A program made the position numbers and the translations under genes. Below the pieces are notes generated by a model. That model ran no database searches, was not told the DNA's origin, and saw only the letters and a program-made list of their open reading frames with translations. A stretch of DNA of 64,000 nt, taken from NCBI RefSeq assembly GCF_009914755.1, contig NC_060940.1. One strand, given 5' to 3'. Positions 18,144 through 28,488 of the stretch are shown here, piece by piece; position 1 is the first letter of the stretch; the number at the start of each line of letters is the position of its first letter. The stretch is from the human T2T-CHM13v2.0 reference genome, Homo sapiens.

Positions 18144-21100
18144 ATGGACGTAAGTCCGGGCCCCTTCCCCTCTCTGGGCCCCCTCAGCGCCCTCTCCTAA
18201 CCCCGAATGGGCCTGTCTTCCAGCACGGACTGGGGAGGGGGCTTCTACCCAACAGAGACTACAACCTGCCAGCTCAGGACGAGAGCTGTCAGGAAGAGTC
18301 CAGGAATGGACTTCCCACGGGAGGGCACATTTCTGGTATTCCTGGCAAGATAAGGAGTTGACTAAGTAATCCACGAGAAAAGGCATTTCCGGCAGAGGAA
18401 ACAGCCTGGGGGTGAGAGGGAGGCTGCAGCATTTGGGGAACTGCTAGGGCTATCGTGTGTTTGGAAGAGGGGGAGGGAGAGAGGTAGGCAGGGCTAAATT
18501 GGGAATTTTGTCACTGACATAAATTTTAAGTGCCAGGCGTGGTGGCTGTCGCCTGTAATTCCAGCTACTGAGGAGACTGAGGTGGGAGGATCGTTTAAGC
18601 CCAGGAGCTCGAGGCTGCAGCGAGCCATGATCATGCCGCTGCACTCCAGCCTGGGTGACAGAGTGAGACACTGTCTCTAAAAAAATTGACCAGGTGCGGT
18701 GGCTCATGCCTGGAATCCCAGCACTTTGGGAGGCCGAGGCGGGCGGATCACCTGAGATCAGGAGTTCAAGACCAGCCTGGCCAACATGGCAAAACCCCCT
18801 CTGTACTAAAAATACAAACATTAGCTGGGCGTCGTGGCGCGCACCTGTAATCCCAGCTACTAGGGAGGCTGAAGTAGGAGAATCGCTTGAACCCGGGTGG
18901 CAGAGGTTGCATGAACCAAGCTTGCCCCACTGCTCCAGCCTGGGTGACAGTGATACTCCGTCTCAATAAGAATAATAATAATAAAATAAATAATAGAAAA
19001 AGTTTTAAGTGAGTTACTGGGAGCCATTGACGGATTGTAAGGGAGGGAGGGATACTACACAAGGACATCTGGTGTGGAAAGGGGCAAAATTGCAGGTTGG
19101 ATGACAGGAGCCGGTAATGTGGGCTGAGGGATGGTAAAGGAGTGGCAAGGGAGTCAGAGACAAGAGATCTCTTTGGAGAGGCATTCCAGAAGGAAAATCA
19201 GCCCTAGAAGACTCTAGAATGCTGAAGTGCTTGATGTTGCTGAACTGGGAATGATAGGGAAAAAGGCAGGCTCAGGGCACAAGATAATGAGTCAGGGTGT
19301 AGTCCTGTTGACGCTCTCCCCACCATCTGGTGGCCGTTCCTCTCCCAGCCACCTCCTCGTCCCTCATGGTATTCCCGTGTTCCTGCAGCCCCTCTCCATC
19401 TCCTTGTCACCCCTTCCTCCTGTACTCGTCCAGGCCTCCTCTAGCCCGTGGAATCCAACCCCGGCTCCTGTCAGCAGCCCTCCCCTGCTGCTCCCCATCC
19501 CTGCCATCGTCTTCATCGCTGTGGGCATCTATTTGTTGCTGCTGGGTCTAGTCCTGCTGACTAGGAACTGCCTGCTGGTGAGGGGTCTGGTCGGGGATAA
19601 AGGGTGGGCTCTGGGGAAGAGGAATCCCGGTAACCTGTCCCTTCATCTGCAGGCTCTTACCGAGACACTTGACATTTAGCCCTTGCATCTATCCGTTTTG
19701 TGGTACCAGGGGGTCCCTCCTCTCCTGTCCCCAGCCAAACCTTTTCCTTTCCCCTCGGGAAAGCTGCCTTGGCTGTCACTACCTGCTGCCTATTCCACAT
19801 CCTGAACCCTGTGACCTAGGCCCAGGGCTGCTGCGCGGACGGTAGCTCCCCCTGCAGGAAGCAAGGTTCCTCCGGGCCCCCAGACTGCTGCTGGACCTGT
19901 GCAGAAGCCTGCAACTTTCCTCTGCCTAGCCCGGCCCACTTCCTGGATGCTTGCTGCCCCCAGCCCACCAGAGCTGTGAGTTCCATTCCTACCCCCTGCC
20001 CCACTGAGCCCTGATCTAGGTATGATCGGTGCATTCATTTTTTTGCTCAACAACATTTATTACTGAGCACCTTCTCAAGGCCAGGCACGGTTCCAGGGCA
20101 TGAATCATGTGCAGCCAGGTAAAAACAACCTATCAGATAATGCCTGGTGATGAAAGCTACTTGAAGAAAATAAAATAGGGTGCCAGCTGGAGAAAGGTGA
20201 TGTGGGTAACATGTAGAGCACATAGCCAGCACTTCTAAATGAAAGTGAGCTAAATGAAAGTTAGCTAAATGAAAAAACAGCTCACACAGCTCCTTTCCGT
20301 TCACCGAATGAACTGTGTTCTAGGTATAGGGCCTCTTTACGGACCTTTGTTTTTCCCAACAACCCTGAGAACTGAGAACTAAGTTGTTTTTTTTTCTTTC
20401 CTCCCTCCAGAGCTGGGTCCTCCCGTCTCCTCCCCTCCCCTCTTCTTTTCTTTTTGTTGTTGTTTGAGACAGGGTTTCACTCTCTCGCCCAGGCTGGAGT
20501 GCAGTGGTGCGATCTAGGCTCACTGCAACCTCCACCTCCCAGGCTCAAGTGATTCTCCTGCCTCAGCCTCCTGAATAGCTGGGATTATAGGCTCACACAA
20601 CTACCATATGGCTAATTTTTATATTTTTAGTAAAGACGGGGTTTCATCATGTTGGCCAGGCTGGTCTCGAACTCCTGACCTCAAATGATCCACCCGCCTT
20701 GGCTGCCCAACGTGCTGGGATTACAGGCGTGAGCCACCATGGCCCAGCCATGGTTTTTTTTTTTTTTTTTTTTTTGAGACGGAGTCTCGCTCTGTTGCCT
20801 AGGCTAGAGTACAGTGGTGTAATCTCAGCTCACTGCAATGTCCACCTCCTGGGTTCAAGCAATTCTGCCTCAGCCTCCTGAGTAGTAGGAATACAGGCGT
20901 GTGCCACCACGCCCAGCTAATTTTTGTATTTTTAGTAGAGACGGGGTTTCACCATGTTGGCCAGGCTGGTCTCGAACTCCTGACCTCAGGTGATCCAGAG
21001 CTGGGTATTTTTTAAAACCTATATGTTTTTTCTGATTACAAAAAGTATTATTTACAAAGTATACATATAGAAATACATGGAAAGTACCAATCACTTTACA

Positions 21101-27100: not shown

Positions 27101-28488
27101 CCAGGAGGCGGAGGTTGCAGTGAGCCGAGACCGCGCCATGGCACTCCAGCCTGGCAACAGAGCGAGACTCCGTCTCAAAAAAAAAAAAAAAAAAGTACAA
27201 AAAATGAGCCGAGCACGGTGGTTCATGCCTGTAATCCCAGCACTTTGGGAGGCCAAGGCGGGCAGATACCTGAGGTCAGGAATTCAAGACCAGCCTGGTC
27301 AACATAGCGAAACCCTGTCTCTACTAAAAATACAAAATTAGCCAAGTGTGGTGGCACATGCCTGTAATCCCACCTACTTGGGAGGCTGAGGCAGGAGAAC
27401 CGCTTGAATCCAGAGGTGGAAGTTGCAGTGAGTGGAGATCACGCCATTGTGCTCCAGCCTGGGCAACAGGAGTGAAACTCCATCTCGGAAAAAAAAAAAA
27501 AAAAATGGCCGGGCACAGTTGCTCACTCCTTTAATCTTAGCACTTTGGGAGGCTGAGGCAGGTGGATCATCTGAGGCCAGGAGTTCCGAGACCAGCCTGA
27601 CCAACATGGTGAAACCCCCATCTCTACTACAAATACAAAAATTAGCTGGGTGTGGTGGCTCACGCCTGTAGTTCAGCTACTCAGAAGGCTGAGGCAGAAC
27701 TACTTGAACCCAGGAGGTGGAGGTTGCAGTGAGCCAAGATCGCACCATTGCACTCCACCCTGGGCAACAGAGTGAGACCCTGTCTCAAAAAAAAAAAAAA
27801 AATTAAAAATAGGTAAATTGCCATTTTCAAAGATACCTGTAAAGATTTTTAAAATCATTCATGAATGCGGTCTGTTCGTTGCACAGAGTAGATGCTCAAA
27901 AATGGTGAATGAGACCCTCTATTTTGGTCTCATGCTGAAGAAGTCCATAAAGCCCACAAGTCATTTTCATGATGGACAGAAAAATGTGTGTGCTTTCTCT
28001 GTCTACTGCCTCAACTGCACAGACCCCGGGACTGTAGCAGAACCATCTTTTGAGCTTGACACCGGGAGGCCCAAATTCTAGCACGGGACCCAGGGCCAGT
28101 TGCTCTCTGGTCCTCAGTCTCCTCACCCATAAAATGGGAAGGAGAGAACCCTGAATCATTGCTTCTAGCTTCTGAACTCAGTTGTTCAGAACAAGGACTC
28201 ACTGCTGATTTTTCAACAGCACAGGGAATTGCACTGTTCCTGGGAATGATGGACAGTACCCTCTGTTCCACTGGGCAAGTGAGATTTCCCAGGCCTCTCT
28301 GTTCCCTTCTCCCCTTAGAGAGCAACAGACGTGGCCCCATCCCACCTCCCTCAACCCTCTCTCTCCTCCCTCAGGACTGGGCACCTCGCTGCCCCCGCTG
28401 CTGCCCACTCTGCGACTGTGCCTGTACGTGCCAGCTCCCCGACTGCCAGAGCCTCAACTGTCTCTGCTTCGAGATCAAGCTCCGATGA
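18144..28488 (+). CDS. LOC112694756: Uncharacterised 139-aa cysteine-rich single-pass membrane protein; coding exons 18144-18149, 19434-19577, 19820-19975, 28375-28488
   Basis: All junctions GT-AG and phase 0; 6+144+156+114=420 nt. Protein: [141 protein letters not shown] helix about aa 26-44, 20 Cys. Symbol recalled for the gene upstream of ALDOA. Confidence 0.82.
18530..18995 (+). mobile_element. Alu right monomer plus full-length Alu
   Basis: Alu consensus motifs, A-rich tail. Confidence 0.9.
19434..19577 (+). CDS. LOC112694756: LOC112694756 exon encoding the transmembrane segment (48 aa)
   Basis: Acceptor ...cctcctgtactcgtccag|GCC, donor CTG|gtgagg; hydrophobic run [19 protein letters not shown]. 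Confidence 0.82.
19820..19975 (+). CDS. LOC112694756: LOC112694756 Cys-rich exon (52 aa, 9 Cys)
   Basis: Acceptor gtgacctag|GCC, donor GCT|gtgagt; open in the same phase. Confidence 0.8.
20440..27805. mobile_element. Third Alu cluster, filling the long last intron of LOC112694756, with L2 (about 23460-23640) and MIR remnants
   Basis: Alu matches, e.g. 20445-20750(-), 20755-20995(-), 21258-21545(-), 21558-21855(-), 23120-23427(-), 23861-24168(+), 24180-24511(-), 24620-24923(-), 26195-26500(-), 26567-26865(+), 26900-27195(+), 27207-27505(+), 27507-27803(+). Confidence 0.93.
23663..23822. mobile_element. MER5-type hAT MITE
   Basis: CAGCGGTTGCTCA...ggccccac...gattctgatgcac...TTAAGAACCACTG terminal motifs typical of MER5. 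Confidence 0.6.
28375..28488 (+). CDS. LOC112694756: LOC112694756 last coding exon (37 aa + TGA, 10 Cys); exon continues to the donor at 28894
   Basis: Strong acceptor tctctctcctccctcag|[40 protein letters not shown]. Confidence 0.82.
   Translation, partial: DWAPRCPRCCPLCDCACTCQLPDCQSLNCLCFEIKLR

What the first reader, a model, noticed from the sequence alone, without database searches (positions are those of the whole stretch)
18144..28488. Hidden 139-aa, 20-Cys single-pass membrane protein encoded upstream of ALDOA
Seen: four exons with canonical splice sites, all phase 0, join into one ORF absent from the ORF track. It has a short S/T/P-rich N-terminus without signal peptide, one TM helix (about aa 26-44) followed by Arg, and a 95-aa tail with 20 Cys including four CC pairs, a CxxCCxxCxCxCxC cluster and a CxxxxCxC-FEIKLR end. 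Established: juxtamembrane CC motifs are typical S-palmitoylation sites and CxC/CC arrays bind metals. Inference: a type III (N-out) palmitoylated or metal-binding membrane microprotein of unknown function, inside the dosage-sensitive 16p11.2 CNV interval. I recall it being annotated only as an uncharacterised locus.
Basis: partly seen in the sequence, partly recalled or inferred. Interest (0 to 1): 0.85.

Follow-up and report, generated by a model that had tools for sequence, protein, structure and literature searches.

The report
Known uncharacterised cysteine-rich membrane protein gene
The four exons do encode a real 139-residue, cysteine-rich, single-pass membrane protein upstream of ALDOA, but it is already annotated and was published in 2019; it proves to be far older than reported (shared with sea anemones) and its function is still unknown.

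Summary
Four phase-0 coding parts with three GT donors and three AG acceptors join into 139 codons. The product has 20 Cys, four CC pairs and one hydrophobic helix.

It is not hidden. It is the CDS of RefSeq NM_001365304.2 and GENCODE ENSG00000285043. Mudge et al. 2019 (PMC6886504) printed it as a PhyloCSF "new discovery" in the ALDOA 5' UTR. They described it as uncharacterised, vertebrate-conserved and co-transcribed with ALDOA, with no peptide support listed.

New here:
- Relatives occur in echinoderms, hemichordates, amphioxus, a tunicate, nemerteans, a chiton and cnidarians.
- The gene is single-copy in the human genome.
- It matches no Pfam family and no solved structure.
- Charge distribution fits N-out/C-in in 107 of 113 members, with none opposite.
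- Thirteen tail Cys are at least 80% conserved in fixed spacing.

My best reading is a type III membrane protein whose cytosolic tail folds on metal-thiolate clusters, with acylated juxtamembrane Cys. That mechanism is inferred, not shown. The annotated human mRNA is bicistronic with ALDOA.

The parts
17600..17999 (.). CpG-rich promoter region between the TLCD3B alternative first exon (minus strand, ends 17676) and the start of LOC112694756 (17801, plus strand)
   Evidence: GC is 0.69-0.70 and CpG observed/expected is 0.78-0.98 in 17600-17999. Exon positions come from the supplied gene table. That the promoter is bidirectional is my inference.
17801..17867 (+). Exon 1, 5' UTR only
   Evidence: Supplied gene table; the spliced 97-nt 5' UTR holds no upstream ATG.
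18114..18149 (+). Exon 2. The start codon is at 18144-18146 and only two codons (Met-Asp) are coding. A GT donor follows at 18150.
   Evidence: The start context has C at -3 and G at +4. The Met-Asp start is shared by placental orthologues.
19434..19577 (+). Coding exon for residues 3-50: the short Ser/Thr/Pro-rich N-terminus, the TM helix (about 23-45), Arg46 and juxtamembrane Cys48
   Evidence: The coelacanth and hemichordate proteins hit this exon when searched against the whole genome.
19820..19975 (+). Coding exon for residues 51-102, the first half of the Cys-rich tail
   Evidence: As a query it finds 7 representative clusters at E<=1e-10. It is skipped in frame in the 87-aa predicted isoforms of other mammals.
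28375..28488 (+). Coding part for residues 103-139 plus the TGA stop. This is the most conserved core: the CxCxC-x4-C-x4-CxC pattern and the FEIKLR end.
   Evidence: Mean identity of the 98 relatives to human is 0.69 in residues 112-139. It is the only match of this peptide in the genome.
28489..28894 (+). Rest of that exon, the spacer between the two ORFs. Its donor splices on into ALDOA exons (29070-29151, 31880-32012 and beyond).
   Evidence: Supplied gene table; there is no AATAAA or ATTAAA between 28489 and 31600. The stop lies 406 nt before the next junction, with nine junctions downstream.
31901..34857 (+). Second ORF of the same annotated mRNA: the 364-aa ALDOA reading frame, which starts at mRNA nt 1027
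   Evidence: One search scanned ORFs on the 2323-nt joined mRNA. I computed window position 31901 from the exon lengths. The end comes from the gene table.

Best explanation
**Shown**
- This is the annotated gene LOC112694756 / ENSG00000285043.
- It is a real, single-copy protein-coding gene of pre-bilaterian age.
- It encodes a 139-aa protein with one very hydrophobic helix and a 94-residue Cys-rich tail.
- The annotated human mRNA carries it as the first of two ORFs, ahead of ALDOA.

**Inferred**
- The protein inserts as a type III (N-out, C-in) signal-anchor protein.
- Cys48, Cys54 and Cys55, next to the membrane, are S-acylated.
- The cytosolic tail is held together by Zn(II)- or Cu(I)-thiolate clusters built from about 13-18 conserved Cys.
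- This presents the near-invariant last 28 residues (the CxCxC-x4-C-x4-CxC pattern, then Phe-Glu-Ile) as a docking surface for an unknown partner.

**My odds**
- Real functional protein: 0.95.
- N-out/C-in: 0.8.
- Metal-dependent fold: 0.5.
- Juxtamembrane acylation: 0.6.
For: **Gene and print record**
- The ORF and splice sites are read directly.
- The identical 139-aa CDS is printed in PMC6886504 Supplemental Data S2, ranked 226 by PhyloCSF.

**Conservation**
- The exon-4 peptide finds 40 proteins. All named ones are mammals, including marsupials and echidna, at 83-100% identity.
- Profile searches give 112 hits and then 157 hits (120 listed). They reach reptiles, amphibians, fishes, amphioxus, tunicate, hemichordates, echinoderms, nemerteans, a chiton and cnidarians (taxonomy checked).
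- A mammal-only profile against a cnidarian+nemertean profile gives hhalign probability 99.8% and E 1e-28 over 119 columns.
- Thirty column shuffles of the second alignment give a best E of 0.015.
- The gene tree follows the species tree.
- Human keeps 26 of the 27 positions that are at least 85% conserved.
- The exon-4 peptide, the coelacanth protein and the hemichordate protein each hit only this locus in the whole genome.

**Topology**
- The positive-inside count is 107 with more K+R on the C side, 6 equal and 0 with fewer, of 113.
- The median length before the TM helix is 18 aa.

**Tail**
- 13 Cys are at least 80% conserved, and 5 more are 50-80% conserved.
- Conserved non-Cys residues are D116, A118, Q122, P124, N130, F134 and E135.
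- Cys counts in the tail are even in 45 members and odd in 53, of 98. An all-disulfide domain would not be expected to show this.
- The tail is unfoldable by AlphaFold2 with either 31 or 98 sequences. From my own knowledge, this is usual for folds that depend on metal clusters.
Against: - No experiment or tool here shows the protein, its topology, acylation or metal binding.
- The 2019 table lists no peptide and no sorfs.org support.
- By the exon-junction rule, the annotated mRNA should be a nonsense-mediated-decay target. Its stop lies 406 nt before the next junction, with nine junctions downstream. Protein levels may therefore be low in human.
- No metallothionein, Pre-SET, zinc-finger or other family is matched at E<=10.
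- Low pLDDT in the tail is equally what a disordered tail would give.
- TM conservation shows no single helical face, so nothing points to one defined intramembrane partner.
- Human and macaque have lost the 95%-conserved Cys58.
- dN/dS could not be computed, because no orthologous DNA is reachable with these tools.
Confidence: 0.5

Rival explanations
1. The tail is a multiply S-acylated cysteine string that lies on the inner leaflet, with no metal and no fold. The protein would then be a lipid-raft-type scaffold.
For: The tail is 16-27% Cys. Cys lie next to the membrane, with Cys48 90% and Cys55 97% conserved. The tail has pLDDT below 50.
Against: Acylated Cys strings tolerate changes in spacing (my own knowledge). 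Here the spacing and the non-Cys residues between the Cys are conserved from cnidarians to human. The best-conserved Cys are those farthest from the membrane, at residues 112-133.
Confidence: 0.2
2. The orientation is the reverse (N-in, C-out). The Cys-rich domain would then be an extracellular or lumenal disulfide knot acting as a ligand or receptor.
For: Cys-rich domains with CC and CxC are common outside cells. The only sub-threshold PDB rows are secreted disulfide-rich phospholipases A2 (E 0.42 and worse).
Against: The positive-inside count is 107 of 113 for C-in and 0 for the reverse. The N-terminus has almost no K/R. Odd Cys counts occur in 53 of 98 members. The PDB rows are not significant.
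Confidence: 0.1
3. In mammals the ORF now acts mainly as a long upstream ORF and decay trigger that tunes ALDOA output from the distal promoter. The peptide would be a by-product.
For: All three RefSeq transcripts read into ALDOA exons, according to the supplied gene table. There is no canonical poly(A) hexamer before ALDOA, and the stop is far upstream of nine junctions. The 2019 authors found no transcript that stops before ALDOA in human or mouse.
Against: Conservation is at the amino-acid level. Placental orthologues are 82-96% identical to human, and the C-terminal 37 residues are 83-100% identical across mammals. The PhyloCSF rank is 226. In zebrafish the gene is a separate transcription unit, so the protein predates the arrangement. 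The two roles could also coexist.
Confidence: 0.07
4. The human copy is a decaying relic: transcribed, but no longer needed.
For: The near-invariant Cys58 is Gly in human and macaque. No peptide support is listed.
Against: The frame is intact, all splice sites are canonical and 26 of 27 conserved positions are kept. Human is 96% identical to the macaque protein.
Confidence: 0.03

Closest known systems
ENSG00000285043 / LOC112694756, the 'CDS within the ALDOA 5' UTR' of Mudge et al. 2019 (PMC6886504)
   Same: It is the same locus and the same 139-aa sequence, with 4 coding exons, and is co-transcribed with ALDOA.
   Different: Nothing differs; it is this gene. The paper gives the conservation as 'vertebrates' and calls the protein uncharacterised. 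The range found here goes back to cnidarians.
Metallothioneins (Zn/Cu-thiolate cluster proteins)
   Same: Both have dense CxC, CC and CxxC motifs, no predicted secondary structure in the Cys core, and about 20 Cys.
   Different: This protein is membrane-anchored, and its tail carries a median of 5 aromatic residues. Its non-Cys residues are strictly conserved. No metallothionein family is matched in Pfam at E<=10. The resemblance is of kind only.
Type III membrane proteins with acylated juxtamembrane Cys (for example synaptotagmin-1), and cysteine-string protein DNAJC5; both recalled, not fetched
   Same: Shared features are a short uncharged N-terminus outside, one TM helix, a basic residue and then Cys just inside.
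   Different: No sequence relationship was tested. Here the Cys continue for 90 residues in a fixed pattern.
Keratin-associated proteins, SMCP and late-cornified-envelope-like proteins, the names NCBI's pipeline gave to many orthologues
   Same: Only the high Cys and Pro content is shared.
   Different: Those proteins have no TM helix (my own knowledge). None of the 31 members scanned matched any keratin-associated or other Cys-rich Pfam family. The names are compositional artefacts.
Other conserved CDSs that share an mRNA with a downstream CDS, for example the one in the MIEF1 5' UTR named in the paper passage
   Same: An upstream conserved CDS and a known downstream CDS sit on one RNA.
   Different: Here the upstream protein is an ancient membrane protein that is a separate gene in zebrafish.

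Membership tests
RefSeq LOC112694756 / GENCODE ENSG00000285043 | The same exon coordinates and the same 139-aa product | tested here: met
   The translation equals the sequence printed in PMC6886504 Data S2. The coordinates equal the CDS in the supplied gene table.
Type III (N-exo/C-cyto) signal-anchor membrane proteins | No cleavable signal peptide, a short N-terminal segment poor in K/R, one hydrophobic helix, and net positive charge on the C-terminal flank | tested here: met
   median 18 aa before the TM helix. K+R average 0.17 on the N flank and 2.1 on the C flank. 107 of 113 members have more on the C side and none have fewer. This is a rule of thumb only. No signal-peptide predictor was available and the topology is not shown experimentally.
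Metallothionein | A match to a metallothionein family model | tested here: not met
   0 of 31 members match any such Pfam family at E<=10.
Metallothionein | Binds Zn, Cu or Cd in thiolate clusters | not testable with these tools
   This needs metal analysis of the purified tail.
Keratin-associated proteins (pipeline name of many orthologues) | A match to the keratin-associated-protein repeat families, and no TM helix | tested here: not met
   only five families were listed (DPM3, CD20, DUF6490, SpeFL, DUF2614). All are below cut-off and none is a keratin-associated family. A TM helix is present.
Pre-SET / CXC-type Zn3Cys9 cluster domains (Cys spacing recalled from memory, a lead only) | A match to the domain model | tested here: not met
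   No such family appears at E<=10. Profile searches of PDB sequences give nothing better than E 0.42.
Regulatory upstream ORF (peptide-independent) | The position is conserved but the peptide sequence is not | tested here: not met
   The peptide sequence is conserved from cnidarians to human.
S-acylated proteins | Thioester-linked fatty acid on Cys | not testable with these tools
   Only the juxtamembrane position of conserved Cys48 and Cys55 is seen.

The most novel reading that the evidence does not exclude
This would be the founding member of an unmodelled eumetazoan family of membrane-tethered metal-thiolate proteins. Such a protein would be a Zn/Cu-sensing or redox-sensing anchor at the cytosolic face of neuronal membranes. 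In mammals it became translationally linked to the glycolytic enzyme ALDOA on one mRNA. Its dosage would change in every 16p11.2 BP4-BP5 deletion or duplication, although the functional gene lists of that interval mostly omit it.
Probability: 0.15. Interest if true: 0.8.

Novelty: already known. Interest (0 to 1): 0.45.

Why it matters
The gene lies in the 16p11.2 BP4-BP5 interval. In the papers I could search, it appears only in gene lists. Where it appears in expression or pathway tables, it looks like a stand-in for ALDOA, because the two share exons.

A protein kept almost unchanged in its last 28 residues since before the split of cnidarians and bilaterians very likely has a specific job. 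It has no family model, no solved structure and no experiment.

Tried and rejected
- **Pfam:** the three exon translations, four orthologues and all 31 members of A3 gave nothing above cut-off.
- **PDB sequence profiles:** the best rows were CALHM6 at E 1.4 and secreted phospholipases A2 at E 0.42 and worse. Neither is significant.
- **ESM Atlas:** the whole protein finds only its own clusters (scores 0.93-0.96), plus a 0.76 lead to the influenza B NB glycoprotein, which I treat as a lead only. The tail alone against named clusters gives no usable hit.
- **AlphaFold2:** run with 31 and then 98 sequences. Mean pLDDT was 56.6 and 57.1, and only the TM helix was confident. No fold search was run, because a tail below pLDDT 50 would give meaningless matches.
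- **Helical-face test of TM conservation:** no bias. The moment was 0.014, and 98.6% of 2000 permutations were as high or higher.
- **Complex prediction:** two copies plus four Zn. The job never ran, so there is no result of any kind.
- **Literature:** the zebrafish gene name gave 0 papers. Gm57854, LOC103691235 and ENSG00000285043 together gave 1 paper, a plasma proteomics table that may reflect ALDOA peptides. 'ALDOA + bicistronic + upstream' gave 14 papers. None of the 12 listed is on this ORF, judged by title and abstract start.
- **Not possible here:** dN/dS and synteny with aldolase outside human, because no orthologous DNA is reachable.
- **Supplements of PMC6886504 not seen:** Supplemental Fig. 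S3D is not held, and supplementary files 1 and 8 were not searched.
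Full report
**1. Observation**

I read the four claimed coding parts and their borders and joined them in a script from the window file.
- The parts are 6, 144, 156 and 114 nt long, so all introns are phase 0.
- GT follows 18149, 19577 and 19975. AG, behind a pyrimidine tract, precedes 19434, 19820 and 28375.
- The join is 420 nt, giving 139 aa and a TGA stop at 28486-28488.
- All 20 Cys lie in residues 48-133, with CC pairs at 54/55, 73/74, 95/96 and 111/112.
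- The most hydrophobic 19-residue window is residues 26-44, with mean Kyte-Doolittle 3.0. AlphaFold2 draws a helix at 24-51 with pLDDT 85-97.
- The mechanical ORF list holds only two fragments of the reading frame.

**2. It is not hidden**

The coordinates are the CDS of RefSeq NM_001365304.2 in the supplied gene table.

Mudge et al. 2019 (Genome Res 29:2073, PMC6886504) describe it. I read passages of section 7 and the relevant rows of Supplemental Data S1 and S2. [quoted passage not shown]

The Data S2 row reads as follows:
- New discovery, top PhyloCSF rank 226, on an existing transcript.
- ENSG00000285043 / ENST00000338110, 139 aa, 4 coding exons.
- Conservation 'vertebrates', with a mouse gene (ENSMUSG00000114515) and a zebrafish model (OTTDARG00000037560).
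- Human expression: weak CAGE signal in cell lines, HPA cerebral cortex with weaker signal in other organs, and low Intropolis scores dominated by brain.
- Mouse expression: weak testis CAGE signal, and ENCODE RNA-seq in brain/CNS.
- 'cotranscribed with ALDOA'. The peptide-support and sorfs.org columns are empty.
[quoted passage not shown] The printed sequence equals my translation.

I saw no function in the other papers:
- The locus name occurs in 9 papers and the clone name AC093512.2 in 4.
- In the passages I read, it sits in lists of CNV genes.
- Elsewhere it looks like an ALDOA proxy. In one cell-line table it ranks beside ribosomal proteins. In another paper it is listed under Reactome neutrophil degranulation.
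- The zebrafish name gave 0 papers. The mouse and rat names gave 0.

**3. How old and how constrained**

- **Exon-4 peptide search.** The query was 40 aa, including three intron codons to reach the tool's minimum. It found 40 proteins. All the named ones are mammals, including four marsupials and echidna, at 83-100% identity.
- **Exon 3 alone.** It found 8 representatives, 7 of them at E<=1e-10.
- **Mammal profile (11 sequences).** It found 112 proteins. These include turtles, squamates, alligator, axolotl, frogs, coelacanth, lungfish, a ray, sturgeon, bowfin, teleosts, amphioxus, a hemichordate and, weakly, a tunicate.
- **Second profile, led by invertebrate members.** It found 157 proteins, of which 120 were listed. 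New groups were echinoderms, more hemichordates, two nemerteans, a truncated chiton model and two anthozoans. Three unnamed proteins also appeared; they group with the anthozoans in the tree (taxonomy).
- **Architecture.** The full-length cnidarian and nemertean proteins I read keep the whole plan: a short N-terminus, the TM helix with its invariant Tyr, the basic-Gln-Cys-Leu juxtamembrane motif, and the C-terminal core.
- **Independent check.** I compared the mammal-only profile with a cnidarian+nemertean profile. The result was probability 99.8% and E 1e-28 over 119 columns. Thirty column-shuffled versions of the second alignment gave a best E of 0.015 and scores of 20.7 or less, against 172.4. 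The match is therefore not compositional.
- **Tree.** A maximum-likelihood tree of 43 members follows the species tree. Support values are placentals 97/91, marsupials 100/99, Ambulacraria 100/100, cnidarian group 100/100, nemerteans 100/99 and ray-finned fishes 100/98. The ray and the tunicate sit on long branches.
- **Copy number.** In the human genome, the exon-4 peptide, the coelacanth protein and the hemichordate protein each hit only this locus. The gene is single-copy and the relationship is reciprocal.
- **Human sequence.** Human keeps 26 of the 27 positions that are at least 85% conserved among 98 relatives. The exception is Cys58, which is Gly in human and macaque.
- **Absent groups.** No bird, arthropod or nematode name appears in the 112 rows or the 120 listed rows. 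Thirty-seven rows were not shown.
- **Not done.** I could not compute dN/dS, because no orthologous DNA is reachable.

**4. Anatomy**

- **Regional conservation.** Mean identity of the 98 relatives to human is 0.21 for the N-terminus, 0.51 for the TM helix, 0.40 for the juxtamembrane part, 0.32 for the middle and 0.69 for residues 112-139.
- **Conserved Cys.** Cys are at least 80% conserved at positions 48, 55, 58, 74, 81, 96, 112, 117, 119, 121, 126, 131 and 133. They are 50-80% conserved at 53, 59, 71, 83 and 91.
- **Invariant residues.** Tyr35, Cys119, Cys126 and Cys133 are invariant.
- **Conserved non-Cys residues.** Asp116, Ala118, Gln122, Pro124, Asn130, Phe134 and Glu135 are at least 90% conserved.
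- **C-terminal end.** Cnidarian and nemertean proteins continue past the Phe-Glu-Ile motif. A free C-terminus at that point is therefore not the conserved feature.
- **Topology.** In 113 members with both landmarks, K+R in the 15 residues before the helix average 0.17, against 2.1 after it. 107 have more on the C side, 6 are equal and none have fewer. The median N-terminal length is 18 aa. By the positive-inside rule this is N-out/C-in.
- **Cys parity.** Tail Cys counts have a median of 20 and a range of 16-30. They are even in 45 members and odd in 53, of 98. This does not fit an all-disulfide ectodomain.
- **TM helix.** TM conservation has no single helical face.
- **Other searches.** Pfam, PDB sequence profiles and the ESM Atlas give no family.
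- **Structure prediction.** AlphaFold2 leaves the tail below pLDDT 50 with either 31 or 98 sequences.

**5. Transcript context**

- The annotated 2323-nt mRNA has ORF1 (139 aa) at nt 98-517 and the 364-aa ALDOA ORF from nt 1027.
- The 97-nt 5' UTR has no upstream ATG. The start context has C at -3 and G at +4.
- There is no AATAAA or ATTAAA between 28489 and 31600. The only one found in the two stretches scanned (28489-31600 and 34800-35200) is ALDOA's own, at 35037.
- The ORF1 stop lies 406 nt before the next junction, with nine junctions downstream. By the established 50-55-nt exon-junction rule such an mRNA is a candidate for nonsense-mediated decay. This is an inference and was not tested.
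- The transcription start lies in a CpG-rich stretch 125 bp from a TLCD3B alternative first exon on the other strand (and the gene table).
- Because all coding exons are phase 0, predicted isoforms in other mammals skip exon 3 (87 aa) or exon 2 (91 aa). The second kind lacks the TM helix.

**6. Mechanism**

Shown:
- It is a real, ancient, single-copy coding gene.
- The protein has one TM helix and a Cys-rich tail with fixed spacing.
- The annotated mRNA is shared with ALDOA.

Inferred:
- Type III insertion, N-out and C-in (odds 0.8).
- S-acylation of the juxtamembrane Cys (0.6).
- A tail folded on Zn- or Cu-thiolate clusters, presenting the invariant last 28 residues to an unknown partner (0.5).

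The case for a metal-dependent fold over a mere acylated Cys string rests on two points. Both the spacing and the residues between the Cys are conserved for over half a billion years. The best-conserved Cys are also those farthest from the membrane.

The core spacing, CxC-x6-C-x4-CxC if Cys121 is set aside, resembles half of the Zn3Cys9 pre-SET pattern as I recall it. That is memory, not a test, and no such family is matched.

The rivals are listed in their own section: a pure acyl string, the reverse topology, a peptide-independent uORF and a relic.

**7. Verdict**

- The gene is annotated and has been in print since 2019, so it is not a discovery.
- Function remains open.

Noticed in passing
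window 28925-35065 (ALDOA) together with 17801-35059 (LOC112694756): Because LOC112694756 transcripts contain ALDOA exons, published tables appear to use the locus name as an ALDOA proxy. In a cell-line table it ranks next to ribosomal proteins by expression. In another paper it is listed under Reactome 'Neutrophil degranulation'. A plasma-proteomics table lists ENSG00000285043. Expression values reported for this locus should be distrusted unless they rest on the four upstream exons.
   Followed up: partly
window 19841-19843 (codon 58): Cys58 is Cys in 95% of 98 relatives but Gly in human and in the macaque protein P0004. It is the only one of the 27 highly conserved positions that human has lost.
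   Followed up: partly
proteins P0005, P0008, P0009, P0015, P0034 (87 aa) and P0020, P0021, P0036 (91 aa): Predicted isoforms in other mammals skip exon 3 or exon 2 in frame. Skipping exon 2 removes the TM helix and would give a soluble Cys-rich protein. The mouse UniProt entry, Gm57854, is this 91-aa form.
   Followed up: no
hit tables: No bird, arthropod or nematode appears among the named hits, although alligator, turtles and squamates, nemerteans, a chiton and cnidarians do. This could be loss, or it could be missing GC-rich sequence in bird assemblies. 37 of the 157 rows were not shown.
   Followed up: no
hit tables: Many orthologues carry pipeline names that Pfam does not support and that look compositional: keratin-associated protein 10-10, 5-4 or 4-9, sperm mitochondrial-associated cysteine-rich protein, late cornified envelope-like, male-specific sperm protein Mst84Db, SCO-spondin, and guanine nucleotide-binding protein subunit gamma 4.
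   Followed up: partly
window 17400-18000, both strands: The LOC112694756 start (17801, +) and a TLCD3B alternative first exon (17424-17676, -) are 125 bp apart in a CpG-rich stretch. This suggests a shared bidirectional promoter (and the gene table). A 210-aa ATG ORF on the minus strand at 17754-18386 overlaps it. I did not examine that ORF; it may well be a chance product of the GC-rich sequence.
   Followed up: no
N-termini of proteins P0056, P0059, P0060, P0117 (vertebrates) and P0158, P0169, P0172, P0190 (cnidarian group): Non-mammalian vertebrates and cnidarians share a Met-Ala-Pro start followed by a Thr/Pro-rich stretch. Placental mammals instead start Met-Asp from a separate two-codon exon part. 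The mammalian first coding exon may therefore be a later replacement.
   Followed up: no
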